From the IMG/VR virus record IMGVR_UViG_3300045988_138996, positions 165,775 to 229,774 of that record: a DNA stretch of 64,000 nt; one strand, 5' to 3'. Shown in pieces: positions 8,267 to 60,983 of the stretch; within the stretch, counting starts at the first letter, position 1, and each line of letters begins with the position of its first letter. The DNA comes from a virus. The position numbers and the translations under genes are program-made. The notes under the pieces are model-generated. The model worked only from the letters and a program-made list of their open reading frames with translations. It made no database searches and had not been told where the DNA came from.

Positions 8267-11200
8267 ATGTCTAAAAAAATTGTTACTCGTGCATACTTCG
8301 GTCTTTATAATCCAGCTCGCAAAGGTTTGACTATTGATACAGATAATAATAATACTGGTAGTCAACCAGCTGTCTATAATAAAGCTGTCGAAAACGTAAC
8401 AAAACAAGCAGCAGAAAACAAAGCAACATCTGCTGCCAACAAAGCGTTAGCCGAAGCTAACCAAGCTGCTGTAGCTAAAGTAGCTGCCGATCTTGCTGCT
8501 AAACAAGCACAAGACGTTATTACATTCTTGAGCAAAGTCGAAGCTGCTGCTCAATATCAACCTAAAGGTGAATATATCACCGATGCTAAAGTAGCTGAAA
8601 AAATTACTGAAGCTCAAGGTAAAGCCGACGAAGCTGCTGCTGCTAAATTTGCGACTAAAGCAGAACTCGAAACAGCTACAGGTGGCGTATCTGCTCAAGA
8701 TCTTAAAACATTAAAAGACGCGATCGATCTTTTAAAAGATAACCCAGATAGCATTGCTGAAATTGCTAAGAAAGCTGATAAAGATAAAGTATACGATAAA
8801 GATGCTATCGATAAGTTAATTAAAAAACTTAACGATAAAGATACTGATCTTGAAAAAGCTATTGCTAAAGCAGCTACTGCCGATGACGTAGTCAAAGCAG
8901 CTGAACTTACTGAAAAAGTTAAAGCTATTGTCGATTTAACTCCGTTTGCTAAAGCTACTGAAGTTGAAGCTACATATGCTAAAAAATCTGATTTGGCCGA
9001 TAAAGCCGATAAAGCTGTTATCGAAACTGAACTTGCTAAAAAAGCTAATGCTAGCGATTTGACTCCGCTTGCTACAAAAGAAGAAGTGGCGGCGAAAGCC
9101 GATGTTACAGCTCTTGCTACAAAAGCTGATCAAACAGCACTTGATAATCTTAAAGCTGAAGCTGATGCAAATAAAGCTGCTGTTACTGCTGAAGTTGCTG
9201 CTCGTAAATCTGCCGATACACTAAACGATGCTAAAGTACAAGGTATTGCTGACGATGTATCTAAAATTAAAATTGATGCGGCTCAAGCTAAAGTAGAAAA
9301 TGAAAAAGCATTAAGCCGCAAGGCGGATCAAGAAGCAGTTAATACAGCATTAGCAGAAAAAGCGACAAAAGCAGAAGCTGCTGAAGCTAAACAAGCTGCT
9401 GTTGATGCTGCAAAAGAAGCTGCTAAAGCTAATACTGCATTAGAAGGCAAAGCTGATGCAACAGCTCTTGAACCATTGGCAACTAAAGAAGCTTTGAAAG
9501 CTGCTAAAGATGAATTAATTCAAGCTGTCGAAGCTGCTAAGACTGTTGCTGAAGAAGCTAAAGCCGAAGCTAAAACCGGTGAAGCTGTGACTGAAGCTAA
9601 AGAAAAAGCTACTGCTGCCGATGCTAAAGCTAAAGAAGTTGAAGCTGCTCTTGTTAATTATGTAACTAAAGCAGTTGCCGATGAAACATATCAACCTAAA
9701 GGTGAATATGCAACTAAAGCTGAAGTACAAGCTATCGGTTCTTTAGATCCTACTACGTTGCAATCTCTTAAAGATTTAGCTCAACAATTAGCTGGTCAAG
9801 CTGATTTGACTACTGTACTTGATAAGTTAAATAAAGTATTCACTAAAGACGAAGTTAACGAAAAACTTGCGGCAAAAGCCGATGTAACTGCTCTTGAAGA
9901 ATACGCAGAGAAAAACGACGTTATATCTAAACTTAAAGACAAAGCTGATAAAGTACAAGTAGCCGAAGATATCGAAGCTGCTAAAGCTGTTGCCGATGCT
10001 GCTGTTCGTGAAGTAAATACAACTGCTCAACAAGCTAAAGCTAAAGCTACTGAAAATGCTACAGGTCTTGAAGAAGCAAAAACTAAAGTCGAAAAAGCAA
10101 TTGAAGATCTTGGTAAATTAACGACTAAAGTTAATGACCTTGCTCTTAACGGTGGTGCTGGCGGCAGTCTTGACGCACAAGCTGTAGCCGATAAAGTTAA
10201 AGAAGTTGTCGATGCTATCGTAGCTCAAGAAAAATATGTAGGCGAAACTAAGCTTAACGAAAAACTTGCTGACAAAGCTGACGTAAGTGCATTGACCGCA
10301 GTTCAAGTTAAAGCTGATAAAAACGCTTCTGATTTATTAGCTAAAGCCGATGTAAGTGCTCTTGCTGATAAAGCTGATAAAACTGTATTTGAAGCTAAAG
10401 CAACTGAACTCGATACAAAATTAAATACTCTCGAAACAGCTACTGTTCCTAATTTAATCGATACTAAACTTACAGCTAAACTTGCTGGTTATCAAGAAAA
10501 AGGCGAATATGTAACTAAAGAAGCTGCTGATCGTGATTATCAACCAAAAGGTGAATACGCTACAGCTGCTGCTTTAGAAGAAGTTAAAACTAAAGCTAAT
10601 GCTAATGAAGCTTTGATTAACGGCCTCGATAAAGATACTTTGGTGCATACTACCGATCTTGATACATATGCTAAAGCTGCTAAAGTAACAGAAGATATTT
10701 CTGCTGCCGTTGCCGGTCTTGGCGATGTATATGTAGCTAAAGCTGATGCTGATGTGTTTGCCAAGAAAGCTGATGTAACGACTGAAATCGGTGCAAAAGC
10801 TACCGAAATTAAAAAATATGCTGACGACACATTTGCTACTAAACAACAATTAGATAATGCAACTATTGCTGCTGGTGGTTCTGGTTTGACTCAAACTCAA
10901 GTCGAAGGTATTGTCGACAATAAATTAGGCGCTCTTAAAGATGCCGTTCAAACTATCGCTAATATCCAATCTGGTGTTAACGACAATAAATCTTCTGTCG
11001 AATCTATTCTTGCTGAATTGGCTAAGAAAGCTACTAAAGACGAATTAGCTGGTAAAGTTGCAACTACTGATTTCGAAGACGCAAAACAAACTCTTAATAC
11101 AGCAATCACAGCTCAAGAAAATGCATTAGCTGCTGCTAAGACTGCATTAGAAAAAGCTATTAACGATAAGTCTGAAGAAGCTGCTGCTGCTTATCAAACT

Positions 11201-12508
11201 AAAGTCGATTTTGCTGCTTGGACTCGTGATGTATACGGTACTGAAATTGCTCGTATTAAAGACGATATGATGACAGCTCAAGAAACTGATGCTGCTATCG
11301 ATGCTAAATTAGCGACTAATCTTGAAACTCTTAAAGGCATTTTCCAAGTTAAAGGTAATTACTTAACTCGTGAAGATTTAACTAATACTCTTAAAGATGG
11401 TTACATCACTAAGAATGAATCCGATCGTTTATATCAAGGTGTAGGCAACTATGCGACTATTGAATATGTCGACGATCAAATCGGTAAAAATAAAGTTAAA
11501 ATCGACGAAGTTAATACGGCTATTGCTAATAAACTTGATGTAAGTGCTGCGACTAGCCTATATCAAACTAAAGGCGATTACGTATTACATAGCGAACTCG
11601 ATACATTAGCAACTACTCCGACTTTTGCAAATGCTATTAATACAGCTATTGTAGGTAAAGGTTATCTCGATAAAGAAACTGCCGATGGTTACTATGCTCC
11701 TAAAGGTCAATATGTAACGACTGAAAATATCGAAGATGCAATCGCTACGAGTGCTGCCGTTACGGCTAAACAAGATGCTCTTACTTTCGGTAATGGTTTA
11801 TCTTATGATGCCGATACAAAAACTTTGACAGCTACCGGTACTGGTGCTTCTGTTGACTTAACTCCTTATGCTAAGAAAGCTGAATCCGATGCTAAGTATG
11901 GTCCAAAAGATACTTTAACTGAAGATCAAAAAGGTGTAGTAGAATCTATCCTTCGTGATAAGAACTATGCTACAAATGCAGATCTTGGTAGCTATAGTGC
12001 AAGCATGGATACTAACATTGGTCAATTAAGAGCTAGTATCAATACTTTAAAAGATACTACTGTTCCAGCTATCGATACTCGTGTAACTGCATTAGAAGGC
12101 AAAGCTGCTCCTACAGATTTCACTGAAGATCAAAAGACTAAATTAAATGAAATCCTTACTGGCAAACATTATACAACTTCTGATGATATCGACAATGCTA
12201 AAGCTGAACTTAAAAATGAATTAGCTACTCAAGATTCTGTAACTCAACTTGCTAACCAAACTCTTACAACTGCTGAAGGTAAAGTTAATGAAGCTAAAGA
12301 AGCGTTGGAAGGCAAAATCACAGAATTGAAAAATACTGTAGATGAAATCCATGTTCCAGATTTAAGTGCTTACGAAACTCAAGCTCAAGCAGAAGCTAAA
12401 TATTTAAAACTTGAAGATATCGAAACTAAGTTAAAAGAAAAAGGCTTTATTACTCAAGCTGATTTACAACCTATTCTCGATGCAATTAAAGCATTAAAAG
12501 GTGAATAG
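8267..12508 (+). CDS. Giant (1413 aa) Ala/Lys/Glu/Thr-rich fibrous protein, probable long tail fibre or whisker
   Basis: aaggaga SD. Low-complexity coiled-coil composition. Recurrent YQPKGEY / YQTKGDY / YAPKGQY / FQVKGNY motif and KADxxALxxKAD repeats. Confidence 0.7.
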   Translation: MSKKIVTRAYFGLYNPARKGLTIDTDNNNTGSQPAVYNKAVENVTKQAAENKATSAANKALAEANQAAVAKVAADLAAKQAQDVITFLSKVEAAAQYQPKGEYITDAKVAEKITEAQGKADEAAAAKFATKAELETATGGVSAQDLKTLKDAIDLLKDNPDSIAEIAKKADKDKVYDKDAIDKLIKKLNDKDTDLEKAIAKAATADDVVKAAELTEKVKAIVDLTPFAKATEVEATYAKKSDLADKADKAVIETELAKKANASDLTPLATKEEVAAKADVTALATKADQTALDNLKAEADANKAAVTAEVAARKSADTLNDAKVQGIADDVSKIKIDAAQAKVENEKALSRKADQEAVNTALAEKATKAEAAEAKQAAVDAAKEAAKANTALEGKADATALEPLATKEALKAAKDELIQAVEAAKTVAEEAKAEAKTGEAVTEAKEKATAADAKAKEVEAALVNYVTKAVADETYQPKGEYATKAEVQAIGSLDPTTLQSLKDLAQQLAGQADLTTVLDKLNKVFTKDEVNEKLAAKADVTALEEYAEKNDVISKLKDKADKVQVAEDIEAAKAVADAAVREVNTTAQQAKAKATENATGLEEAKTKVEKAIEDLGKLTTKVNDLALNGGAGGSLDAQAVADKVKEVVDAIVAQEKYVGETKLNEKLADKADVSALTAVQVKADKNASDLLAKADVSALADKADKTVFEAKATELDTKLNTLETATVPNLIDTKLTAKLAGYQEKGEYVTKEAADRDYQPKGEYATAAALEEVKTKANANEALINGLDKDTLVHTTDLDTYAKAAKVTEDISAAVAGLGDVYVAKADADVFAKKADVTTEIGAKATEIKKYADDTFATKQQLDNATIAAGGSGLTQTQVEGIVDNKLGALKDAVQTIANIQSGVNDNKSSVESILAELAKKATKDELAGKVATTDFEDAKQTLNTAITAQENALAAAKTALEKAINDKSEEAAAAYQTKVDFAAWTRDVYGTEIARIKDDMMTAQETDAAIDAKLATNLETLKGIFQVKGNYLTREDLTNTLKDGYITKNESDRLYQGVGNYATIEYVDDQIGKNKVKIDEVNTAIANKLDVSAATSLYQTKGDYVLHSELDTLATTPTFANAINTAIVGKGYLDKETADGYYAPKGQYVTTENIEDAIATSAAVTAKQDALTFGNGLSYDADTKTLTATGTGASVDLTPYAKKAESDAKYGPKDTLTEDQKGVVESILRDKNYATNADLGSYSASMDTNIGQLRASINTLKDTTVPAIDTRVTALEGKAAPTDFTEDQKTKLNEILTGKHYTTSDDIDNAKAELKNELATQDSVTQLANQTLTTAEGKVNEAKEALEGKITELKNTVDEIHVPDLSAYETQAQAEAKYLKLEDIETKLKEKGFITQADLQPILDAIKALKGE

Positions 12509-26607: not shown

Positions 26608-26636
26608 CCCGTAGCAACCTGTAGCTGCGGGTTTTC
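26608..26636 (+). terminator. Rho-independent terminator closing the family A array
   Basis: cccgtagc/gctgcggg stem with one G-U pair, followed by tttt. Confidence 0.7.
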
Positions 26637-27033
26637 TTATATCTTATTATATCGTACATATATTCGCTATATAAGGGAAATTTTTGTGGTGTATATTTTT
26701 ATAATGACGCGTTTTGTGTGATGTGTTTTTTATTTTTGTCTTTCTCTTTTTTTTGTTTTGTGTGAGGAAGGTTAGATTGTTAGGCAGTGGTTGTATTATC
26801 AATTATGCTTTGTAAATGAGAATGCTTATATAGGGCCAAATTTTGGTTTTGGATCAAAGGGGTAAGTGTTTTATATATAGGTGGCCTCGGAGCTAAAGTT
26901 CGCCCCCCCTGCTTTGATTCAGGGTGTTATTTGATGGAGAGCTTGGCCTCGAGACCGTACAGACATACATAATGATGTCTGCCATTTAATTATTAGTCTT
27001 GGGAAGACGTTAAAAGCAACCAGGAGGATTATT

Positions 27034-27312
27034 ATGAAAAAGACAGTAGCAACAGTAATGGTAGCAACAGTAGTAGGAATGACAATGTGGTTTGCAACAC
27101 CAGTTGCACCAGATCACTACGAAATGCATGTTGTTAAAGGAGGTGAAACTATTACAAGCATCATAGAAGATGCTAATCGTAACACGGATGTCAACTATGA
27201 CATTCGCGAAGCTGTTGCAACATCTGTTGCTAAATCAGCTAAGATGGAAGGAGGAGTGACAAGCAGATCAATCCATCCAGGAGAAAAGATTGCTGTTCCT
27301 ATCTACAAGTAA
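27034..27312 (+). CDS. Small membrane-anchored LysM-like protein (YneA-like architecture)
   Basis: aggagg SD. N-terminal TM helix, then VVKGGETITSII...IHPGEKIAVPIYK resembling a LysM fold with an insertion. Confidence 0.45.
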   Translation: MKKTVATVMVATVVGMTMWFATPVAPDHYEMHVVKGGETITSIIEDANRNTDVNYDIREAVATSVAKSAKMEGGVTSRSIHPGEKIAVPIYK

Positions 27313-27398
27313 TTAGATAGGCTCAGTAACATAGTCCAGCTGTATGACTATAAACTATAGTAATGTATATCATTGTATGTCATAAGGAGGAAAAGATC

Positions 27399-33143: not shown

Positions 33144-33221
33144 CCCCCCGCCGGGGCTAAACCTTCTACGGGGTACTATGTCGACATTTACGGCATGGTA
33201 CTCCTGTTGAAGTTTTTGTTT

Positions 33222-33240
33222 GCGACTCCGTCGCGAAATT
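33222..33240 (+). promoter_or_regulatory. Class A hairpin-GAAATT motif, copy c
   Basis: gcgac-TCC-gtcgc then GAAATT. Followed by a GAGGC..GCCTC hairpin. 56 nt before ATG 33296. Confidence 0.7.
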
Positions 33241-33295
33241 TTTCACGAGGCAATTTCGCCTCACATTCGTTATTCTACATGGAAGGAGAAAAGTT

Positions 33296-33457
33296 ATGCC
33301 AGTAGAAACAGTTTATAATTATCATTTAATAGATGTTGATAGAGAAATGTTCTCCGTTACAACATCTGATACTACTTCCGAAGTACTCAGAGAGTACCAA
33401 GGTTATGTATTAGTCGAAAGAGAAGTAATAGGCTATAGAGCAATCTTAGCCGACTAA
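33296..33457 (+). CDS. Small protein (53 aa), below the ORF-track cutoff
   Basis: ggaaggaga SD. ATG 33296 to TAA 33455-33457, read by hand: MPVETVYNYHLIDVDREMFSVTTSDTTSEVLREYQGYVLVEREVIGYRAILAD. Confidence 0.55.
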   Translation: MPVETVYNYHLIDVDREMFSVTTSDTTSEVLREYQGYVLVEREVIGYRAILAD

Positions 33458-33462
33458 TAATG

Positions 33463-33500
33463 AGGTGCTGGTAAGAAATTGCCGGCACCTTGCTTTAATT
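33463..33500 (+). terminator. Hairpin, weak terminator
   Basis: aggtgctgg/ccggcacct stem with one G-U pair; the T-tract is poor. Confidence 0.4.
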
Positions 33501-33542
33501 TAGTATTTAATATTTCATTATAAACATGAGGAGGATATTATC

Positions 33543-33689
33543 ATGTTAAAGAAACAATTCGTACAATGGCTTAATTCTTTTTACGCGGAATACCCTGTAA
33601 CATTCCGCGTGTTCTGGTTCCTAGTGGGCTGGACTGTAGGCAGTGCAGTAAAGATGGCAGTGTTGCAACATCGCCTTAACAAACGCTAG
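33543..33689 (+). CDS. Small hydrophobic protein (48 aa), below the ORF-track cutoff
   Basis: gaggagga SD. MLKKQFVQWLNSFYAEYPVTFRVFWFLVGWTVGSAVKMAVLQHRLNKR, one TM-like segment. Confidence 0.55.
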   Translation: MLKKQFVQWLNSFYAEYPVTFRVFWFLVGWTVGSAVKMAVLQHRLNKR

Positions 33690-33729
33690 GCGATAGAAGG
33701 TTTCGCTGGAGGGTTAACTTCTGAAGTTT

Positions 33730-33747
33730 CCCCTCCGGGGCGAAATC
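33730..33747 (+). promoter_or_regulatory. Class A hairpin-GAAATC motif, copy d
   Basis: cccc-TCC-gggg then c-GAAATC. Followed by a tgaccct..agggtca hairpin and a T-rich run. Its left arm can alternatively pair with upstream ggaggg. Confidence 0.6.
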
Positions 33748-33920
33748 TCCTGTGACCCTCTATTAATAGCTAGGGTCATATTTATTTTTATTATAAAGCT
33801 TTATATAAGCTACCGTAGGTGCTATGTACTCATAATACCTCCCTTTAATAAGATACACAACAACCTAATGTGCATCTACGGTAGTTGATATAAGGTTTTA
33901 TATACCTTACGAGATTGAGA

Positions 33921-33938
33921 GGGCTCCGCCCCGAAATC
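33921..33938 (+). promoter_or_regulatory. Class A hairpin-GAAATC motif, copy e
   Basis: gggc-TCC-gccc then c-GAAATC. Followed by about 200 nt of stacked hairpins before ATG 34143. Confidence 0.7.
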
Positions 33939-34142
33939 TTTCATGGGGCCTTCTGTGTGGAGGTCCCTTTCATACTTTTCTCCTCTTCTCCAGTAGTTAG
34001 GTCTGCTGGAGATATGAGGGCTAGATGAGCATTGACTTATCTAGCCTTGATATCTCTTGCAAGTGTGTGTTGATGCAAGAGGAGATTTTATTTTCACTAT
34101 GGCACGTGAAGCCATAGTACTTTTAAGAAGGAGGACATTACA

Positions 34143-34910: not shown

Positions 34911-35408
34911 ATGGCAACTTTTAATCTTAAACACGCAAATCCTGAAGTTATTAGTTATATGGCTGAAAAAATTCAGGTAGAATATCAAGGTACCGTTGAA
35001 GAAATCGACGGCGGTATTAAAGTAGAATGTTCTGACGAACATTTAAAAGACATTACGGACGCTTTTTCTAGAGTGAAACGTAATACTACAGTTTCAGGCT
35101 GGACTAAAACAGCCACTAAGTTTATTGGTCGTCAGACCAATACTATTAAAGACGCTGGCATCGGTGCCGTAGGCCTAGGTGCTAAAGGTTTGTTCGGAGG
35201 CTTGAAAAAGGTATCCGAATTGGCTATGGGTGCGACTAGTGTTATTATCAATGAAGGTAAAGAAGCTTGGAAAGAAGCTAGCGTTAGCGATGAGCTTCGT
35301 AACTTGAAGAAGAGCTTCGGCAGTACTGGTAGCGATGAAGAAGGCATTGAAATCATTAAAGATAATGCTGAAACTACTGTAAATAAAACTGCCGGTGCAG
35401 AAGGCTAA
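34911..35408 (+). CDS. Hypothetical protein with a Gly-rich central segment
   Basis: agaggagg SD. GIGAVGLGAKGLFGGLKK segment. Confidence 0.65.
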   Translation: MATFNLKHANPEVISYMAEKIQVEYQGTVEEIDGGIKVECSDEHLKDITDAFSRVKRNTTVSGWTKTATKFIGRQTNTIKDAGIGAVGLGAKGLFGGLKKVSELAMGATSVIINEGKEAWKEASVSDELRNLKKSFGSTGSDEEGIEIIKDNAETTVNKTAGAEG

Positions 35409-35606
35409 TAATTTCTGCGGACGATTGCTATTAACCGTCGGTAAATATTAATAGCATATAGCCCTAGTTGTCGAGAGCGAGTGGGACGACAACCTTATTC
35501 CGACCCTTAAAAGATGTTCTTGGTCGGGCTAATAAGATATGAACATCTAAGGTTTATAAGCGGGTGATGTCTGACGCTTATAATCTAAAATGCAGACATC
35601 ATAATA

Positions 35607-35660
35607 GGGTTTAGTCTAGAGGGGCAGGATTTGCTCTCCTAGGCTAAACCTTTATTTTTT
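35607..35660 (+). terminator. Long imperfect hairpin plus T-run closing the G+C-rich island
   Basis: ggtttag..ctaaacc outer stem with inner G-U pairs that work only on the + strand, then tttatttttt. Confidence 0.7.
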
Positions 35661-35887
35661 CTTATGTTGAATATACATTTAGGTGATACTGTCGTTACAG
35701 CGTTAGCTAAATGTATATTTTTTTATAATTCGCGAAAAGCATATCGCCTCAGTACGTATGGCGTAATTCGGGTGTTAGCTTTAGCGAAAGTCCATTTTTT
35801 TGGACACTTTTGGCAGTGGGCTAATTTTTTTAGTGACTGCTTTTTTTATCGGAACGATTACGTTTCCGATCGCCAAGAATTATTAAG

Positions 35888-36444
35888 GAGCGAGCGTCAG
35901 CGAGCGACTGTATATTATTTTATATATAGTAAGCCCGAGCGAAGCGAGGGCGTATATATCAAGTTCTCTGTGTACTCTCTTCTAAAGAGAGTAGTTTTGT
36001 ATTTATTTAGTATAGTCTAAGGCGAGCGAAGCGAGCCGTATATTCTTTGTTTACTTTCTTTTTAAGAAAGTAATTATGTTTATTATTTATTATTAGTAGT
36101 TCTCTGCTGTCTCTCTTGTAAAGAGAGTAGTTATATTATTAGTATTTTATATGTATAGATTCTCTGTTATCTCTCTTATCAAGAGAGTAATTAGTTATTT
36201 TATATATATGTATCATAATAGTATTAACGCAGCGAGCGAAGCGAGCGGAGTATGTATTATGTAGTATGTAGTTATTCCCGAAGAACGAGGAACGCTAGTG
36301 ACGAGTGAATTGTAGTGTCCTAGCGTAAGCGACGATCATAAGAGTATATATTGTATATTATATATAGGGCGAGCGAGGGGAGCGTCAGCGACCGGAGCGA
36401 GCATAGTATTATTATATAATATATTATAGGGAGCATAGCGACCG
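35888..36444 (+). repeat. Cluster of GCGA-rich boxes each followed by (G)GTATAT
   Basis: GAGCGAAGCGAG is exact at 35936-35947, 36023-36034 and 36233-36244. Related agcgagcgtcagcgagcgac (35888-35907), gcgagcgaggggagcgtcagcgaccggagcgagc (36367-36400) and gagcatagcgaccgg (36430-36444). All are followed by GTATAT, AGTATG or AGTATT. Confidence 0.7.
35961..36190 (+). repeat. Three copies of a ~45-nt hairpin repeat plus one unrelated 10-bp hairpin
   Basis: TTCTCTG-N-CTCTCTT-loop-AAGAGAGTA at about 35961-35995, 36098-36130 and 36158-36190. ttactttctt/aagaaagtaa hairpin at 36050-36072. Confidence 0.7.
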
Positions 36445-37709
36445 GAGTATATATATAGTCTTATAGGAGCTAGATAGGCCAATAAGGATTGGTGAATATT
36501 TAGTATATCGTGATATAGTATATCGTATTATACTATAGTAGTATATAGTAAATATGTGAGATCCTTATTTACAGTAAAAAGAAAAATTCGGCCTTGAAAA
36601 TTTACAGGTCGTAGACCGGAAAATTTTAAGTATTTTCCGCCCGGGGATATCTATATCATATATATAGTATAAGAAGGAACGTAGTGACTGGTAGATATAT
36701 ATTATGTTAATAATATAGTATATTTTCTGCCGTCGGTATTTTGTTAAAAGAGAGACTACTATATATAATAATTTCCGCCTAGGATATTATGGTTTATATA
36801 TAATATGTTTTTAGTTAATGTTTTTCCTGTATGCATACGCATACAGATATTAAAAACTTTTAGGGTGGGATATCTTATAATAATATTGAACGTCAGTGAA
36901 ATGTTATTATAGATTTAAATCTATATTAGATATAATTTTAATGAGAGCTATTAATGTGAAGAATAGGGAGCGCCGCGAATCTATTCAGCTATTAAAATTC
37001 TTAGTCGACACGATAGTATAGTATGGTAGAGATCGTGTCGATAGGTTACGAGTGCTAACGAGTTATATGTAGAATTCGTTGAGATGAAGGATGTTATCGA
37101 TGAGCCCGCGAAGAGAAACATCGTTCTTTAGAATTCGTAACAATATATCTAATGCGTTTGTGTATTATCAATATATATCAAGAAAATATATACTGATGTG
37201 TTTGAGTGAAGCTTGCGAAAAGAAAAACGCAATCAATTTTTATATATCGTAACGAAGCCCGTAAGGGTTCGTATTAGTATTATATATAGCTTATGAATAT
37301 AAGCGTATGTATATAACTATTAATACGAATTATACCAAAGTATTAGAAGTTAGTAAGCGTCTAATAAGTAGGTGGTTTTTGTTTGGGATCCGCCGTTATC
37401 TTAGTATTTCATTTACTAGCTAAGGTATTTAAAAGTCCCTTGCGTTTATTTTAGTCGAGTTATTTTATATATAATATTATATATAATAATAACGAAGAGC
37501 CATTACTGTTAAGAATGGATAGTAGACGAAATTGGGAACGGGCCCCAATAATAGTTATTATATTCTCTTAGAGAATATATAACGTCAATGGTTCGTCGTG
37601 TACGATCCTTTTCGAGTTTCGCAGAAAATTACGTAAGTAAGAGTTTGTAGCATTTGTAAAATGGGACAACATTTTGTTAGTATTCTCGCTATGTTACACA
37701 TAGCGACAC

Positions 37710-37739
37710 AAAAAAAGACCCCGAATTAATTTCGAGGTC
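37710..37739 (-). terminator. Minus-strand rho-independent terminator
   Basis: On the - strand: gacctcgaa-atta-ttcggggtc with a T-G wobble (a C-A mismatch on +), then T7. Confidence 0.6.
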
Positions 37740-37762
37740 GTTATATATTGTTTACTAAAAGC

Positions 37763-37791
37763 GATGAACTACGTTCATCGGTATATTACTC
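37763..37791. promoter_or_regulatory. Class B element 1: 7-bp hairpin plus GGTATATTACTC
   Basis: gatgaac-tac-gttcatc followed by GGTATATTACTC (37780-37791). Confidence 0.65.
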
Positions 37792-37839
37792 ATGTTTAAG
37801 TATAAGTTATTAATAATTTAAAAAAATAATTCAGAAAAT

Positions 37840-37859
37840 AAAAAAGACCCCGAAGGGCC
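37840..37859 (-). terminator. Minus-strand terminator with a UUCG loop
   Basis: On the - strand: ggccc-ttcg-gggtc with a G-T wobble (an A-C mismatch on +), then T6. Confidence 0.6.
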
Positions 37860-37935
37860 ATTTTTATATAAGTATTTTTTTAATATTCAAAGCGGTGCGA
37901 AGCGAAGCGTAGCAAACCGTGGAGCGTAGCGGAAC

Positions 37936-37964
37936 GGTGAACTGCGTTCACCGGTATATTACTC
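37936..37964. promoter_or_regulatory. Class B element 2: 7-bp hairpin plus GGTATATTACTC
   Basis: ggtgaac-tgc-gttcacc followed by GGTATATTACTC (37953-37964). Confidence 0.65.
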
Positions 37965-38097
37965 TGTTTAGATACGTCGTTAATCAAAAATAAAAAAATA
38001 TTTTTTATTTAATTCTATTATATATATAACAAGCAATAAAAAAAACAGCCTCAGATTTTTATGACCTGGACTGTTTTGTGTGTGTAAAAACGGAAGC

Positions 38098-38128
38098 GGT
38101 GTAACGTAGTTACACCGGTATATTACTC
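38098..38128. promoter_or_regulatory. Class B element 3: 8-bp hairpin plus GGTATATTACTC
   Basis: ggtgtaac-gta-gttacacc followed by GGTATATTACTC (38117-38128). Confidence 0.65.
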
Positions 38129-38234
38129 AAGTTAGGTATATCATTAATCAATTTTGTAAAAATAATTAAATATTCATTATTAATGCATAAAGTAAGACAG
38201 GGGTATTTTTAAGTTAAAAAAATAGAAAAAATTA

Positions 38235-38259
38235 AAGTCAGATAATATCTGGCTTTTTT
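38235..38259 (+). terminator. Plus-strand rho-independent terminator in the ORF-free region
   Basis: gtcagat-aat-atctggc with a T-G wobble that works only on +, then T7. Confidence 0.55.
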
Positions 38260-38695
38260 TAATTTTAATGTCTGGTTTAGTATATATAGGAAACAATAAA
38301 ACATAATATACAGAATATGTATATTTATGAATACGAGCTTTTTTCAAAAGCGTTCGCCTACCATAGCTTACTCCGAAAAGTTTAAATGAAACGTCGTAAG
38401 CGTACTAGTGACGCGGGTTTTTAATAATTTTATATTTTAAAATTATGTAGGGTTAGGAACGAGGTATATAAAAATTGCTCCCTTAATAGTTCTTATTTAT
38501 CTCTTATATATACTATATATATAATATAAAAGGATTATTTTTTTATATAGTCCGCCGTCTCCTCACGAGCGCCAACCTGAGTTATATTTAGCTATATATA
38601 TAGGTATTGCTATAGCTTTATTTAGCTCTGTATATACGGCTAGACCTATTTAAAACATCTTACCTGTATAGGTAGCTCCCTTGGGGGGTGGGGGG

Positions 38696-38984
38696 AGTCC
38701 GCAACACTCTCAAGTTTGTTATTTTTAAGTAAAAACTAGTAAAAATTGTTTATGGCTATTAAAACGATTAAGAGTTGGTAACACTCTGTATTTGCTGTTA
38801 ATTAACTAAAAATGGCTGTTTTTATATATACAGCTATTAAAATCATTTTAAGTCCGCAACACTCATAATGTCTCCCTTTTTACACAAAAACAGCTTATTT
38901 TGCAATAACTAAGTTTCGTATTTTTGCAGTATTTTATAATATTTTAGTTTATGACTATTAATATCTATTAAGTCCACAACATTC
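38696..38984 (+). repeat. Four iteron-like 14-mers (AGTCCGCAACACTC family)
   Basis: 38696-38709 agtccgcaacactc; 38773-38786 agttggtaacactc; 38851-38864 agtccgcaacactc; 38971-38984 agtccacaacattc. The last three are preceded by a CTATTAA-N-ATT-AAG context. Confidence 0.65.
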
Positions 38985-39029
38985 ATAAAAACGTCTTAAA
39001 TAGTTAAAAACAATATATTTTCATATTAA

Positions 39030-39057
39030 ATGTATTTGGTCATATGTATTTGGTCAT
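39030..39057 (+). repeat. Perfect tandem duplication of a 14-mer
   Basis: atgtatttggtcat x2 (39030-39043 and 39044-39057), bordering an extremely AT-rich tract (39058 to about 39340). Confidence 0.8.
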
Positions 39058-39490
39058 ATAATATATTTAATTAATATAGTGTATTGCTATATATATCATT
39101 AATCTGTTATAGCAACTTTATTAGTATTTAATAGCTATATATAGTCATATATATAGTTTATTGTTATATTATATATATGGTTTAATATATATTGTCATAT
39201 ATATGTATATAGTTAACGTATTATATTATAGTTTATCATTAGTATAGTATTAACAGTTATATTAGTATTTAGTATTATGTTATTAGTAGTATTAGTGTTA
39301 TTATATATATAGTAAGAGTAATAATAAAGAGAAACTATTAAATGAAAAGATGCGGGCGATTTTGTATATTGTTTTTTATATCAATCTAATGAATTGCCGC
39401 ATTTGATTTTTATATGTATGATATATTTATCAGCATATGATTAATAACTGTATATGGTTTTATATATATAAGGCTAATGTCATTAAGTAC

Positions 39491-39508
39491 GTGCTCCGCA
39501 CCGAAATC
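39491..39508 (+). promoter_or_regulatory. Class A hairpin-GAAATC motif, copy f
   Basis: gtgc-TCC-gcac then c-GAAATC. 46 nt before ATG 39554, at the head of the small-gene array. Confidence 0.7.
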
Positions 39509-39553
39509 TCCCGTAGTCCTTTTTTATTATATAGGAATTAATGAGCGTAGAGA

Positions 39554-39754
39554 ATGAATCAATATTTAGTCGATGCTATTGTCGATCATGATGATTGGAT
39601 ACGGTATATTAGACCAAGGAAGATGTGTTATTCTGACGATATAAGCGAGAAATATAACCTAGATAATATAATCGTAGCATATAGCAGGAATTATTATAAA
39701 TATAGTGCCGAATTATATTTACAGTATTTAATGTATTTAATGGTAATAGAATGA
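39554..39754 (+). CDS. Small protein, Tyr-rich C-terminal helix family B
   Basis: First ORF after class A motif f. Ends YSAELYLQYLMYLMVIE. Confidence 0.6.
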   Translation: MNQYLVDAIVDHDDWIRYIRPRKMCYSDDISEKYNLDNIIVAYSRNYYKYSAELYLQYLMYLMVIE

Positions 39755-39755
39755 T

Positions 39756-39968
39756 ATGAATAAATTAAAGCTTTTTGAAAAAATAATGTATAGCTTTTTT
39801 AATATAATTAATAAAGACAATAAATATGAAAAATATTATAGCATTAATAATAATAATGGTTATGATATTCTTAAAAAACATTTTATTTATGTCTATGAAA
39901 ATGAAAAATATAATGCCAACGTATACTATTATTACTATATATGGTTAATTATATTGGTAAAAATATGA
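39756..39968 (+). CDS. Small protein, family B
   Basis: Ends YNANVYYYYYIWLIILVKI. Confidence 0.65.
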   Translation: MNKLKLFEKIMYSFFNIINKDNKYEKYYSINNNNGYDILKKHFIYVYENEKYNANVYYYYYIWLIILVKI

Positions 39969-40165
39969 ATAAGAATGAATTAATCGATAATATTATCGAC
40001 GCAGCCTGGATAATAAAAACAAAATATCCAAAATATATGCCGTCTAGAAATTTTCATATAGTCGACGTTGTTACAAGAATTACTGTATATAGTAATGGTA
40101 GTCAAGAAATTAACGGCATGATATATTATAGTTATTGGTTAGTGTTAGGGTGTTTATATGAATAG
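39965..40165 (+). CDS. Small protein, family B
   Basis: ATGA overlap with the upstream stop. Ends INGMIYYSYWLVLGCLYE. Confidence 0.65.
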   Translation: MNKNELIDNIIDAAWIIKTKYPKYMPSRNFHIVDVVTRITVYSNGSQEINGMIYYSYWLVLGCLYE

Positions 40166-59625: not shown

Positions 59626-59729
59626 TGATTCTAAAATGTCCTGGAAAAGTTTTACTGAAAATTTGTTTTTCTGGCAAAAATATGTTATAATTATCTCGTA
59701 ATATAATATTAGAAAGCGAGGTGATTATA

Positions 59730-60983
59730 ATGTATCTAACAATAAAACAACAAGTAAAACATTTAACTAAAGAAGAATATAATATTTTAAGAGAATTGTC
59801 TAGAATAGCTAAGAATTTAACTAATCAAGCAATATATAATGTTCGACAACATTATTTTCAAGAAAAACAATATTTAAGATATGAAGCAAATTATCATGAA
59901 ATGAAATATCTTGAAAATTATAAATTATTAAATGCTAATATAGCTCAACAAACACTTAAAGATGTTGATATAATGTTTAAATCATTTTTTGCTTTAATAA
60001 AATTAGCAAAACAAGGTAAATATGACTTTAAACATATTAAATTACCTAGCTATTTACCTAAAAATAGTTATTCAAATATAGCTATTAGTCAAATTAGAAT
60101 TAAAAATAGTATTTTAACAATTCCATATTCTAATACTTTTAAAAGAAAAAAAGAAGTTAATAAAATTCAAATTAAGATTCCTAAAGTATTAGAAGATAAA
60201 AAAATAAAACAAATTCAAATTATTCCTAAATTTAATGCTAGGTTCTTCGAAATTCAATATACATATGAAATCGAAGAAGAAAATTTAAAATTAAATACTA
60301 ACAATGCACTAGCTATTGATTTAGGTGTAAATAATTTATGTACTTGTGTTACAAATACAGGCAAATCTTTTATTATTGATGGAAGAAAGTTAAAATCTAT
60401 TAATCAATTCTTTAATAAACAAAATGCAAACTTACAATCTATCAAAGACAAACAAAATATTAAACGACAAACAAAACAACAATATTTAATTTCTCGCAAG
60501 AGAAAAAATAGAATTGATGATTATATTAATAAAACCTGTCGATATGTTATTAATTATTGTTTATCTTACGATGTTGGTACTTTAGTTATTGGATATAATC
60601 AATCATTTCAAAATAAAACTAACTTAGGCAAAAGAAATAATCAAATTTTTACACAGTTACCATTTGGTAAGATTCGTGAAAAATTAGAATATTTATGTAA
60701 ACGATATAATATTAATTATATCTTACAAGAAGAATCTTATACTTCTAAAGCTAGTTTCTTTGATAATGATGAGTTGCCTATATATAATGCTGATAATCCA
60801 CAAACCTATGAATTTAGTGGCAAGCGTATTAAAAGAGGTTTATATCAAACTAAAGATAAATATCGTTTTAATGCAGATTGTAACGGAGCATTAAATATTC
60901 TTCGCAAAAGTAAAGCTGTAGACTTAACTGTCTTATGCAATAGAGGCGAACTGGACACGCCTAAAAGAATAAGGATCTCTTAG
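59730..60983 (+). CDS. tnpB: TnpB (IS605 OrfB-type RNA-guided nuclease family), variant lacking the zinc finger
   Basis: gaggtga SD. RuvC motifs ALAIDLGVNN (D), LQEESYTSKAS (E), FNADCNGALNILRK (D). No CxxC pairs between E and D. Confidence 0.85.
   Translation: MYLTIKQQVKHLTKEEYNILRELSRIAKNLTNQAIYNVRQHYFQEKQYLRYEANYHEMKYLENYKLLNANIAQQTLKDVDIMFKSFFALIKLAKQGKYDFKHIKLPSYLPKNSYSNIAISQIRIKNSILTIPYSNTFKRKKEVNKIQIKIPKVLEDKKIKQIQIIPKFNARFFEIQYTYEIEEENLKLNTNNALAIDLGVNNLCTCVTNTGKSFIIDGRKLKSINQFFNKQNANLQSIKDKQNIKRQTKQQYLISRKRKNRIDDYINKTCRYVINYCLSYDVGTLVIGYNQSFQNKTNLGKRNNQIFTQLPFGKIREKLEYLCKRYNINYILQEESYTSKASFFDNDELPIYNADNPQTYEFSGKRIKRGLYQTKDKYRFNADCNGALNILRKSKAVDLTVLCNRGELDTPKRIRIS

What the first reader, a model, noticed from the sequence alone, without database searches (positions are those of the whole stretch)
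35409..39553. 4.1 kb ORF-free region of hairpins and repeats in a densely coding phage genome
Between CDS 34911-35408 and 39554 the six-frame track has a single ORF of at least 60 aa (35664-36020). That ORF runs through repeats and has no ribosome-binding site. The region instead holds at least 10 same-orientation elements in which a GC/purine-rich tract (GAGCGAAGCGAG exact three times, plus variants) is followed by (G)GTATAT or GAGTAT. It also holds three copies of a 45-nt TTCTCTG..CTCTCTT/AAGAGAG hairpin repeat and more than 15 further short perfect hairpins, for example 36827-36846 and the 10-bp stem at 37003-37041. Direct repeats (tagtatatcgt x2, tagaattcgt x2), terminators on both strands, iterons and an AT-rich block complete it. 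The class B elements (ACCGGTATATTACTC) and the GCGA boxes (GACCGGAGTATATAT) look like diverged members of one family. Possible roles are a regulatory or promoter hub, a decoy or binding-site array for a phage or host protein, a replication origin, or the physical genome ends or terminal repeat boundary.
Basis: seen in the sequence. Interest (0 to 1): 0.7.

Follow-up and report, generated by a model that had tools for sequence, protein, structure and literature searches.

The report
Conserved non-coding RNA island in jumbo phage
The 4.1 kb gene-free stretch is real and is better conserved than the genes beside it in about 75 related contigs of roughly 230 kb human-associated phages; it holds a catalogued RNA of unknown function (OTKONC) plus arrays of hairpin modules and terminators that look like a cluster of small non-coding transcription units.

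Summary
Window 35409-39553 has no conserved ORF under the standard code or any single-stop reassignment.

It is neither decay nor an artefact. Roughly 75 related contigs from human metagenomes, some 229-236 kb long, keep the same island in the same place. In the 25 closest loci aligned, nucleotide identity to the window is 85-97% over 35.6-38.6 kb, against 66-82% for the flanking genes.

The "GC tract + GTATAT" elements are hairpin-tail-hairpin modules. Class A has a GCG(N)NAGC mini-hairpin with tandem G·A pairs. Class B has a perfect covarying stem followed by GTATATTAC. Strand-specific terminators lie on both strands.

A third module class, CTCCG hairpin + CGAAATC, sits upstream of genes. 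On the template strand it reads as the N4 promoter mini-hairpin GCGGAGC.

Best reading: a cluster of short non-coding transcription units with hairpin-type promoter or leader modules. Assembly breaks cluster at 38.0-38.2 and 38.6-38.7 kb, so a nearby terminus or origin is not excluded.

The parts
35409..35603 (+). Hairpin cluster just after the last structural-block gene. It is replaced by a diverged but still hairpin-forming version in some relatives.
   Evidence: Alignment shows paired changes, for example AGATGTTC/GAACATCT becoming GGATATTC/GAATATCC. Hairpin scan.
35607..35660 (+). Strong intrinsic terminator ending the late or structural transcription unit.
   Evidence: RNA fold gives -27.3 kcal/mol on + against -17.0 on -, with a U-run on +. 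93% conserved.
35666..35880 (+). Run of five further conserved hairpins, two of them followed by U7 (35670-35725 and 35812-35847). Either a terminator battery or small plus-sense RNAs.
   Evidence: Fold of 35604-35880 on + is -102.8 kcal/mol (z = -9.6), against -75.4 on -. Individual hairpins favour the + strand. 93-94% identity in relatives.
35887..36454 (+). Class A array. Seven GC-box hairpins at 35887-35916, 35933-35959, 36021-36044, 36229-36254, 36323-36351, 36367-36409 and 36429-36454. Core is CGAGC-G(N)NA-GCGAG: a mini-hairpin loop, two G-C pairs, a tandem G·A in the 5'-CGAG-3' context, and covarying outer stems. Each is followed by (G/A)TAT-rich sequence.
   Evidence: Coordinates. The loops GAA, GTAA, GACA and GGTA all fit GCGNAGC or GCGNNAGC. 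Outer stems GGC/GCC, GCCC/GGGC, GGCC/GGCC and TGCC/GGCA are seen across relatives. The structure exists only on the + strand. Conserved in both clades.
35964..36194 (+). Four D1 modules at 35964-35999, 36043-36078, 36100-36135 and 36160-36194. Each is TTCT(C/T)TG, then a 7-10 bp hairpin (CTCTCTT/AAGAGAG and covarying variants), then a T-rich tail. Terminator-like on + only.
   Evidence: Across 68 distinct instances: 519 Watson-Crick pairs, 8 G·U and 1 A·C on +.
36496..36555 (.). TA-rich palindrome and direct repeat (TAGTATATCGT x2).
   Evidence: (I5).
36585..36800 (+). Hypervariable hairpin (about 36596-36640) between conserved flanks, plus three TTT(C/T)(C/T)GCC boxes (36634, 36724, 36772). 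Whole modules are gained or lost between relatives.
   Evidence: A homologous ATTTTTCGCCCC box is present in clade 2.
36827..36846 (.). 8 bp hairpin whose sequence changes while pairing is kept.
   Evidence: 6 of 8 pairs show compensatory changes in relatives. Alignment.
37005..37041 (.). 10 bp stem hairpin with paired changes in relatives.
37345..37460 (+). Conserved structured domain upstream of OTKONC. It is 93-97% identical within clade 1 and recognisably homologous in clade 2.
   Evidence: RNAalifold finds compensatory pairs between the two clades: GGUGG/CCGCC against GCUGG/CCGGC, and UAAG/CUUA against CCAG/CUGG. My reading of the alignment adds a third hairpin, TTAGAAG..CGTCTAA, which changes in a paired way to TGAGGAG..CTCCTAA inside clade 1 and to TTAGAG..CTCTAA in clade 2; RNAalifold did not predict this helix. 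A G·U pair at columns 88/111 is invariant on +.
37486..37497 (+). ATAATA..GA.G, invariant in both clades amid variable AT-rich DNA. Putative -10 box and start site of the OTKONC transcript (inferred).
   Evidence: Invariant columns.
37519..37684 (+). OTKONC RNA (Rfam RF03053).
   Evidence: 160.2 bits against a gathering score of 141.4, E = 2e-27, full-length match to model positions 1-159. Also found in relatives. Helix UUUC/GAAA against CUGC/GCAG: both sides changed in 9 of 20 sequences.
37710..37739 (-). T0, a minus-strand intrinsic terminator directly downstream of OTKONC.
   Evidence: -13.2 kcal/mol on - against -10.2 on +, with U7 only on -. In relatives, 7 A·C cells and 0 G·U cells when read on +. 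The clade 2 counterpart also favours the minus strand.
37762..38126 (+). Class B modules at 37762-37789, 37935-37962 and 38097-38126. Each is a perfect 8-9 bp hairpin with a 3 nt loop, then the invariant GTATATTAC, then a variable second hairpin. A class A-like GC box lies at 37892-37934.
   Evidence: (D3). Across 39 distinct contexts, 331 of 331 pairs are Watson-Crick, with covarying stems. The second hairpin has 15 G·U against 6 A·C on +. The motif is found only here in 64 kb. Two or three copies follow OTKONC in nearly every contig that extends far enough.
37840..38084 (-). T1 (37840-37867, UUCG loop on the minus strand) and T2 (38038-38084). Both are A-run/hairpin/T-run terminators between the class B modules. 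They favour the minus strand and may work in both directions.
   Evidence: T1 is -11.8 kcal/mol on - against -6.5 on +. T2 is -14.0 against -9.5. Site listed.
38234..38260 (+). T3, a plus-strand intrinsic terminator closing the class B cluster.
   Evidence: -10.4 kcal/mol on + against -5.7 on -, G·U on +, U7 tail.
38290..38697 (.). Conserved block (84-94% identity). It includes CCTCACGAGCGCC (38561-38573, kept in clade 2) and the G-rich tract GGGGGGTGGGGGGAG (38683-38697). Conservation collapses just after it.
38696..39330 (.). Diverged 77-78 nt tandem units that start with AGTCCGCAACACTC (four copies here, one to four in clade-1 relatives, mostly not detected in clade 2), followed by an AT-rich microsatellite-like block. 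Five contig ends fall within 90 nt of its left edge. Candidate DNA-level element such as an origin, packaging site or terminus.
   Evidence: (D2).
39491..39508 (+). Class C element GTGC-TCC-GCAC-CGAAATC, 46 nt upstream of the first small ORF. One of six copies in the window, all on +.

Best explanation
The stretch is a conserved non-coding island of an uncultured lineage of roughly 230 kb phages from human samples. It lies between the structural-gene block and a block of tiny AT-rich genes.

It works mainly at the transcription and RNA level, as a cluster of short non-coding transcription units. These are:
- a battery of plus-strand terminators and small hairpin RNAs (35.6-35.9 kb);
- a tandem array of class A and D1 cassettes (35.9-36.45 kb);
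- a structured plus-sense region of about 350 nt whose 3' part is the Rfam RNA OTKONC (37.35-37.70 kb);
- three class B cassettes fenced by terminators on both strands (37.7-38.26 kb).

The "GC tract + GTATAT" elements are the first hairpin and tail of a three-part module: hairpin 1, a conserved tail of 7-9 nt, then hairpin 2. I read hairpin 1 plus tail as a DNA-hairpin promoter or leader signal of the kind known from phage N4, and hairpin 2 as the 5' structure of the short transcript.

Shown: absence of coding, conservation, OTKONC membership, covariation, and the strand bias of the terminators.

Inferred: that the modules are promoters, which way class A fires, what the RNAs do (probably trans-acting regulators or protein-binding RNAs made around the start of infection), and whether the repeat and AT-rich segment at 38.7-39.3 kb is a separate DNA-level element.
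For: Non-coding..

Selective constraint. Identity to the window is 85-97% across 35.6-38.6 kb, against 66-82% in the flanking genes, in 25 loci. A more distant clade keeps the same order of parts. All 42 real metagenome hits fall in or between the two clades. Where a contig extends far enough it carries 2-6 class A cores, 2-4 D1 modules and 2-3 class B tails around OTKONC; one contig (L186) shows no class A or D1 match in 2.2 kb of upstream sequence.

RNA-level signals. OTKONC scores 160 bits. 13 of 45 RNAalifold pairs have compensatory changes, including helices in the upstream domain. Terminator-like sites are 20 against 3.5 expected. Their strand preferences are consistent and are reproduced in clade 2. 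The fold of 35604-35880 is 27 kcal/mol better on +.

Module grammar. Class B hairpin 1 is 331/331 Watson-Crick with covariation, while hairpin 2 is about 10% G·U on +. Class C has the same layout and lies 46-56 nt upstream of ORF starts in four of its six copies, all six on the coding strand. On the template strand class C reads GCGGAGC, which is the N4 virion-polymerase promoter mini-hairpin (PMC13037366; PMC4496689). All class A loops fit the DNA mini-hairpin rule GCGNAGC or GCGNNAGC.
Against: - No transcript data are available.
- No RNA polymerase gene was found in the 64 kb window or in the extra 10 kb seen.
- By N4 geometry the class A mini-hairpin sits on the strand that would template leftward transcription. 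Its conserved tail and the D1 terminators point rightward instead.
- T0, T1 and T2 favour the minus strand, while the G·U bias of class B hairpin 2 favours plus-sense RNA. The direction of the class B units is therefore unresolved.
- Hairpin 1 plus tail could equally be an RNA motif bound by a protein.
- Much of the covariation is between only two clades, so it represents few independent events.
- Contig ends cluster inside the island, which a purely RNA-level reading does not explain.
Confidence: 0.5

Rival explanations
1. This is the leading-end early-promoter hub at or next to a physical genome terminus. The island would be the first DNA to enter the cell. Its hairpin promoters would be read by a virion-delivered polymerase, as at the left end of N4, and the terminus or packaging start would lie near 38.7 kb.
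For: The island sits between late-type and early-type gene blocks, all on one strand. The hairpin promoter-like modules are clustered and share one orientation. N4 keeps its three hairpin promoters in the leftmost 10% of its genome. Contig ends pile up at 38.01-38.18 kb (9 contigs) and 38.63-38.72 kb (5 contigs, including one of 229,898 bp), exactly where conservation collapses.
Against: The window itself and contigs of 229,838, 229,888, 235,681 and 236,501 bp run through the island, with OTKONC 11 to about 131 kb from the nearer contig end. Break points are spread over more than 1 kb and coincide with repeats that can break assemblies. The first early ORF has its own class C element. Each module is followed by a terminator. 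No virion polymerase has been identified.
Confidence: 0.2
2. This is a DNA-level replication origin or priming region. On this reading the plus-strand mini-hairpins are single-strand initiation signals for a primase, the 77 nt units are initiator-binding iterons, and the AT-rich block is the unwinding element.
For: GCGAAGC-type mini-hairpins occur at the priming origins of phage G4 and relatives and in ssiA. Class A structures exist on one strand only. Class B stems are Watson-Crick only, as expected for DNA hairpins. Iteron-like repeats and a block at 21.5% GC are present.
Against: Cumulative GC skew rises steadily with no switch. Iteron copy number varies from one to four and the units are poorly conserved. 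The best-conserved parts are a bona fide structured RNA and terminators. The DnaE-type polymerase gene lies more than 30 kb away.
Confidence: 0.12
3. This is an RNA array that binds a protein. The class A and D1 cassettes would be nut-like sites, with a boxB-like hairpin carrying a G-N-(N)-A loop followed by a boxA-like UUCU(U/C)UG. They would either load an antitermination complex or soak up a host or phage RNA-binding factor.
For: The order hairpin then linear pyrimidine box then hairpin matches the rrn boxB-boxA-boxC layout. The N protein recognises a GNRA-fold boxB. TTCT(C/T)TG follows every cassette in both clades. GTTCTTTGAAAAC is a conserved rRNA-spacer sequence in mycoplasmas. That it is the Gram-positive boxA rests on my memory. 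The cassettes are tandem and multi-copy, like known sponge RNAs.
Against: The host and its boxA are unknown. The 7-mer is short. TTCTTTG occurs 8 and 9 times on the two strands of the window, close to the expected 5.8. Only 6 of 55 class C copies carry it. Two of the four loop types are not GNRA. No N-like protein has been identified.
Confidence: 0.1
4. These are remnants of mobile or repeat elements: IS200/IS605 ends, REP-like palindromes, or solitary CRISPR-repeat mimics (hairpin plus an 8-9 nt handle).
For: The layout is a hairpin followed by a fixed 9-mer ending in TTAC. A TnpB gene is present in the window. Class B has the shape of a class 1 CRISPR repeat. This last resemblance is from memory.
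Against: The copies are confined to one syntenic site in every genome sampled and are absent from the other 60 kb. The stems covary between copies within a single genome, which a repeat mimic or a transposon end would not do. No TnpA, spacers or array spacing are present.
Confidence: 0.03
5. These are decayed genes, alternative-code genes or an assembly artefact.
For: None beyond the lack of ORFs.
Against: The region is more conserved than the neighbouring genes. There is no codon periodicity. No stop reassignment restores ORFs. The island is present in about 75 independently assembled contigs.
Confidence: 0.01

Closest known systems
OTKONC RNA motif (Rfam RF03053; I recall it coming from the Weinberg et al. 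2017 set of 224 candidate RNAs, but neither Rfam nor that paper's text confirmed this here)
   Same: Window 37519-37684 (+) is a full-length member above the curated threshold, and the relatives carry it too.
   Different: The family is a 159 nt model with no assigned function. No text on it could be found. Here it is one part of a 4 kb island in roughly 230 kb phages, with a second conserved structured domain directly upstream.
Phage N4 virion-RNA-polymerase hairpin promoters
   Same: A short hairpin with a 3 nt G-N-A loop closed by C-G. Stem bases are free to vary provided pairing is kept. A conserved stretch lies between the hairpin and the start site. Several copies are clustered in non-coding DNA ahead of early genes. 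The class C element carries the very heptamer GCGGAGC on the template strand of the downstream genes.
   Different: No N4-like polymerase was seen. Class B stems are 8-9 bp rather than 5-7, and three of the seven loop types seen lack a G-N-A reading on the minus (template) strand. The class A mini-hairpin is on the opposite strand to the one predicted for rightward transcription. The tails (GTATATTAC, CGAAATC) are unrelated to N4. Class C is spread through the genome rather than confined to one end. The genome is about three times the size of N4's (from memory).
AT-rich early promoters of phiKZ/AR9-type jumbo phages
   Same: A jumbo phage with a conserved TATATTA-type core; AR9 uses AAATATATATTAT-N6-G.
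   Different: Those motifs precede dozens of early genes (41 in AR9) and have no upstream hairpin. Here GTATATTAC occurs three times, all in the island. No split multisubunit polymerase genes were seen in the window.
Phage T5 injection-stop region, and terminal non-coding repeat regions of T7, SPO1 and similar phages (from memory)
   Same: A long non-coding stretch, rich in direct and inverted repeats, next to the first-expressed small genes.
   Different: Those regions are defined by their position in terminal repeats and by DNA-entry phenotypes, which cannot be tested here. They are not known to hold a conserved structured RNA or terminators on both strands.
rrn and lambda nut antitermination sites
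   Same: A hairpin with a G-N-(N)-A loop next to a linear pyrimidine box, in the rrn order.
   Different: These are tandem multi-copy cassettes, each with its own terminator-like hairpin. The boxA match is a 7-mer only, and the host is unknown.

Membership tests
Rfam RF03053 (OTKONC RNA) | Covariance-model score at or above the curated gathering score, over the whole model. | tested here: met
   160.2 bits against 141.4, model positions 1-159 of 159, not truncated. Relatives score 157-165 bits.
Rfam RF03053 (OTKONC RNA) | Helices kept by compensatory changes. | tested here: met
   Columns 397/422 and 399/420 changed on both sides in 9 of 20 sequences. Column pair 446/464 changed on both sides in 6 of 20.
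N4-type DNA-hairpin promoters | Hairpin with a 3 nt G-N-A loop (GCGGAGC or GCGAAGC) on the template strand, with stem sequence free but pairing kept. | tested here: inconclusive
   Class C meets it: the loop reads GGA on the template strand in 31 of 32 versions, with 11 or more covarying stems. Class B meets it for four of the seven loop types seen (26 of 39 distinct contexts), read on the minus strand. Class A carries GCGAAGC on the non-template strand for rightward transcription.
N4-type DNA-hairpin promoters | Conserved bases between the hairpin and the start site, with the start a fixed distance downstream. | tested here: inconclusive
   Invariant tails GTATATTAC and CGAAATC directly follow the hairpin. 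Start sites cannot be mapped from sequence.
N4-type DNA-hairpin promoters | A virion-packaged single-subunit RNA polymerase encoded by the phage. | not testable with these tools
   None was found in the window or in the extra 10 kb. About 155 kb of the genome could not be read.
N4-type DNA-hairpin promoters | Promoters confined to the genome end that enters the cell first. | not testable with these tools
   The physical ends are unknown. Class C is dispersed across the window (31.2-53.9 kb).
phiKZ/AR9 virion-polymerase early promoters | An extended AT-rich consensus repeated in front of many early genes. | tested here: not met
   GTATATTAC and GGTATATTACTC each occur three times, all inside the island, and none precedes the genes at 39.5-64 kb.
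Intrinsic (Rho-independent) terminators | A GC-rich stem-loop followed at once by a U-run on the transcribed strand. | tested here: met
   35607-35660, 35812-35847 and 38234-38260 on +. 37710-37739, 37840-37867 and 38038-38084 on -.
Replication origin | Iterons plus an AT-rich unwinding element, with a strand-composition switch. | tested here: inconclusive
   Repeats and an AT-rich block are present. There is no GC-skew switch. Repeat number varies from one to four.
Fixed genome terminus or terminal repeat | Independent assemblies ending at one sharp coordinate, or read-start pile-ups. | tested here: inconclusive
   Contig ends cluster at 38.01-38.18 and 38.63-38.72 kb. They are nevertheless scattered, and several near-full-length contigs pass through. 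Reads are not available.
CRISPR array or solitary-repeat mimic | Near-identical repeats with spacers of about 30-40 nt, or identity to a host repeat. | tested here: not met
   Spacing is 164-173 nt, and the stems differ and covary between copies.
IS200/IS605 ends or REP elements | Dispersed copies at non-syntenic sites, associated with a TnpA or RAYT gene. | tested here: not met
   Copies occur only in this syntenic island. Only TnpB is present, 20 kb away.

The most novel reading that the evidence does not exclude
This uncultured lineage of roughly 230 kb human-associated phages runs its transcription on N4-style DNA-hairpin promoters in three classes. Class C, with GCGGAGC on the template strand, serves protein-coding genes. 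Classes A and B are concentrated in a 4 kb gene-free island. There they drive many tiny terminated RNAs on both strands next to a larger structured RNA (OTKONC plus its upstream domain). This would be the first hairpin-promoter system outside the N4-like phages. It would also make the island a dedicated non-coding RNA factory for host takeover or phage regulation.
Probability: 0.22. Interest if true: 0.8.

Novelty: new variant of a known kind. Interest (0 to 1): 0.6.

Why it matters
OTKONC is listed in Rfam as an RNA with no function, and no text about its source organism could be found. This analysis places it in a defined setting: a strongly conserved 4 kb non-coding island in roughly 230 kb phages that recur in human metagenomes.

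Phage genomes rarely spend 2% of their length on non-coding DNA that evolves more slowly than the neighbouring genes. The island therefore probably encodes functions, such as small RNAs or unusual promoters, that protein-centred annotation misses.

The hairpin-tail-hairpin grammar, together with the exact N4 promoter heptamer upstream of genes, gives a concrete hypothesis about how an entirely uncharacterised phage group is transcribed. It can be tested with transcript-end mapping.

Tried and rejected
- **Cultured relatives.** Megablast and sensitive blastn of the island against 50,697 phage records found nothing. Megablast of the flanking structural block and tblastn of one of its proteins also found nothing. 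Only the DnaE-type polymerase has distant relatives, at 35% identity or less.
- **Known RNAs.** No tRNA or tmRNA is present. The only other Rfam hits are sub-threshold chance matches, ncr1015 and sau-63.
- **Alternative genetic codes.** Rejected.
- **Small proteins.** Rejected by broken frames and lack of codon periodicity.
- **Genome-collection scan.** My pattern was too loose and returned only chance hits (L045-L164). The same applies to L006, L024, L032-L036, L038, L039, L042, L044 and L179, which should be ignored.
- **Polymerase search.** The 1413 aa protein is an Ala/Lys-rich coiled-coil repeat protein, not a polymerase. Pfam and PHROGs on 40 window proteins gave almost nothing.
- **Long-range helix.** RNAalifold proposed a helix joining the upstream domain to the OTKONC 3' end. 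I discount it, because a local hairpin with independent covariation uses the same bases.
- **Sigma-70 promoters.** Promoter-like hits are not enriched (48 against 41 expected). A minus-strand -35/-10 reading of class B fails on spacing, which is 20 nt.
- **boxA idea.** It weakened when the 7-mer proved close to chance frequency and rare in class C.
- **Literature.** Searches for OTKONC and RF03053 returned nothing.

Full report
**What the window is**

The 64 kb window is low in GC (about 30%), and every credible ORF lies on the + strand. It runs through four blocks:
- a DnaE-type DNA polymerase at 9-2858;
- a block of structural-type genes, including a baseplate Gp10-like protein, ending at 35408;
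- the gene-free stretch;
- a long run of tiny, very AT-rich genes.

On a longer copy of the same genome the small genes are followed by guanylate kinase, ClpP, SSB, ThyA and DHFR. That copy is ENA contig ERZ27263341:k119_197840, 229,838 bp, where window position x corresponds to record position 88265 - x.

No cultured phage is detectably related at the DNA level, and a structural-block protein also finds nothing. Nearly all proteins tested lack Pfam or PHROG matches.

**Checking the observation**

- Only one ORF reaches 60 aa, and no stop-codon reassignment creates long frames.
- In alignments with relatives, the two flanking genes are intact in 15/15 and 17/18 sequences. Substitutions in them pile up at third codon positions (for example 689/434/1762).
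- All 16 internal ORFs of at least 30 aa are broken in some or most relatives and show no periodicity. The 118 aa ORF is intact in 0 of 17.
- The collection's gene caller also leaves 4.56 kb empty here.
- Perfect hairpins number 24 against 4.1 +/- 2.0 in shuffles. Terminator-like sites number 20 against 3.5.
- The named repeats are all at the stated places.
- The correction: the 45 nt hairpin repeat has four copies, not three.

**It is conserved, not decayed**

A 17-mer from the region pulled 27 viral contigs, and a looser pattern pulled 8 more that are real relatives. A metagenome scan added 42 real hits, at least one labelled as a human metagenome assembly. Several contigs are 228-236 kb long.

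In a 26-sequence alignment, identity to the window is 85-97% over 35.6-36.6, 36.9-37.7 and 38.2-38.6 kb. The coding DNA on either side shows 66-82%.

A second, more distant clade is 65-82% identical in genes. It keeps the same last two genes, a 3.3 kb ORF-free gap, and the same order of parts: GC-box and hairpin cassettes, then OTKONC, then class B modules. In nearly every contig that extends far enough, OTKONC is flanked by 2-6 class A cores, 2-4 D1 modules and 2-3 class B tails.

Conservation collapses at about 38.70 kb.

**A known RNA, and more RNA around it**

Window 37519-37684 (+) matches Rfam RF03053 (OTKONC) at 160.2 bits against a gathering score of 141.4, and so do the relatives. I recall the family coming from the Weinberg et al. 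2017 survey of 224 candidate RNAs. One of that survey's search sets was metagenomic contigs without recognisable genes. I could find no text on the motif itself.

Directly upstream, 37345-37460 is almost invariant in clade 1 and homologous in clade 2. RNAalifold finds compensatory helices there, for example GGUGG/CCGCC against GCUGG/CCGGC. Overall 13 of 45 predicted pairs have both sides changed.

Between the two blocks lies ATAATA..GA.G (37486-37497), invariant in both clades amid otherwise variable AT-rich DNA. That pattern is what a -10 box and start site would look like. This is an inference.

**Terminators say both strands are transcribed**

Hairpins at the left end favour the + strand:
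- 35607-35660: -27.3 kcal/mol on + against -17.0 on -;
- 35670-35725 and 35812-35847, both followed by U-runs.

The whole 35604-35880 segment folds 27 kcal/mol better on +.

Three hairpins favour the minus strand: just after OTKONC (37710-37739), at 37840-37867 and at 38038-38084. On the minus strand they have long U-runs, G·U pairs that would be A·C mismatches on +, and in one case a UUCG loop. The clade 2 counterparts behave the same way.

The cluster closes with a plus-strand terminator at 38234-38260.

In a genome whose genes all face one way, minus-strand terminators that are conserved inside a gene-free stretch imply non-coding transcription.

**Anatomy of the repeated elements**

*Class A (seven copies, 35887-36454).* The core is a hairpin, CGAGC-loop-GCGAG. 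Its loop (GAA, GTAA, GACA or GGTA) always fits the extraordinarily stable DNA mini-hairpin rule GCGNAGC or GCGNNAGC. Two G-C pairs follow, then a tandem G·A mismatch in the favourable 5'-CGAG-3' context, then outer stems that covary (GGC/GCC, GCCC/GGGC, GGCC/GGCC, TGCC/GGCA). This structure exists only on the + strand. After it comes (G/A)TAT-rich sequence and, in the clearest cassettes (in four of them a D1 module follows or stands alone), TTCT(C/T)TG, a covarying 7-10 bp hairpin (D1) and a T-rich tail.

*Class B (three copies).* This is a perfect 8-9 bp hairpin followed by the invariant GTATATTAC and then a variable second hairpin. Across 39 distinct versions, all 331 stem pairs are Watson-Crick although the stems differ (CGGTGAAC, CGATGAAC, CGGTGTAAC, CGGTGAAAC, TAGTGAAC). 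The second hairpin carries about 10% G·U pairs, read on +.

*Class C.* I found a third class with the same layout: NNNC-TCC-GNNN-CGAAATC followed by a variable, G·U-rich second hairpin. There are six copies in the window, all on +. Four lie 46-56 nt upstream of ORF starts, including 39491, just before the first small ORF.

**Link to N4**

Phage N4's virion polymerase recognises a hairpin extruded from supercoiled DNA. The hairpin has a 5-7 bp stem whose non-conserved bases need only pair. The 3 nt loop is GGA or GAA within GCGGAGC or GCGAAGC on the template strand. Conserved bases run down to the start site. Three promoters are clustered at the end of the genome that enters first.

Class C reads GCGGAGC on the strand that templates the downstream genes, so both its geometry and its orientation match. 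Class B has G-N-A or G-NN-A loops on that same strand in four of the seven loop types seen.

Class A does not fit cleanly. Its mini-hairpin is on the opposite strand, while its tail and terminator point rightward.

The contrast between first hairpins almost free of G·U and second hairpins rich in G·U is what a DNA hairpin followed by an RNA 5' hairpin would give. It is not proof.

No polymerase gene could be found in the 74 kb available.

**Most likely mechanism**

I read the island as a cluster of short non-coding transcription units. The repeated hairpin-tail modules would be their promoter or leader signals, and OTKONC plus its upstream domain would be the largest product (confidence 0.5).

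The function of the RNAs is unknown. Their position next to the early-type genes and their multi-copy form suggest trans-acting regulators or protein-binding RNAs. This is an inference.

**What remains open**

Contig ends cluster at 38.01-38.18 kb (nine contigs) and at 38.63-38.72 kb (five contigs, one of 229,898 bp). The second cluster sits at the G-rich tract where conservation stops and the variable 77 nt repeats begin. This could be a terminus or packaging site. It could equally be an assembly break caused by repeats and strain variation, because several near-full-length contigs and the window itself pass through.

An origin is possible for 38.7-39.3 kb, but GC skew shows no switch.

A nut-like or sponge reading of the class A and D1 cassettes rests on a short pyrimidine box and an unknown host.

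Mobile-element and CRISPR-mimic readings fail on distribution and on covariation between copies.

**Verdict**

This is a real, strongly constrained, largely undescribed non-coding island that contains one already catalogued RNA. It is best filed as a new variant of known kinds: phage small-RNA loci and hairpin-type promoters.

Noticed in passing
window 31231, 33730, 33921, 39491, 47954, 53896 (all + strand): Class C element NNNC-TCC-GNNN-CGAAATC followed by a variable hairpin. There are six copies on + and none on -. Four lie 46-56 nt upstream of ORF starts. Relatives show 32 distinct versions with 11 or more covarying stems. On the template strand it reads as the N4 promoter mini-hairpin GCGGAGC. 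It is not in Rfam.
   Followed up: partly
window 33144-34142: A second ORF-poor stretch of about 1 kb, 92% conserved at 33701-33900 and about 85% at 33901-34100. It holds two class C copies and four plus-strand terminator-like hairpins. Only two small ORFs (53 and 48 aa) lie in it.
   Followed up: partly
window 26608-27362: A G/T-rich gap of about 430-750 nt without a convincing ORF, between two late-block genes.
   Followed up: no
window 59721-60983; L167 4364-5578: A TnpB (IS605 OrfB, Cas12f-like) gene inside the early block. It sits at a different position in a 224,957 bp relative, so it is mobile within this phage lineage.
   Followed up: partly
window 8267-12508: A 1413 aa alanine/lysine-rich protein predicted to be a coiled-coil repeat, with no match in Pfam, PHROGs or the PDB sequence set.
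   Followed up: partly
window 39554-39968: The first two small ORFs after the island (39554-39754 and 39756-39968) are not called on the identical ENA contig. The first is intact in only 2 of 10 relatives, so the gene-free stretch may extend to about 39.94 kb.
   Followed up: partly
window 38010-38180 and 38630-38725 (mapped from L020, L025, L040, L041, L181 and others): Ends of independently assembled contigs cluster at these two spots. Three large clade 2 contigs end within 20 nt of each other at the G-rich tract.
   Followed up: partly
window 36001-37000 and 39001-40000: GC skew is unusually high (0.29) even though the first interval is non-coding. This reflects the purine-rich AGCGA boxes, which occur 20 times on + and once on - within the island.
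   Followed up: no
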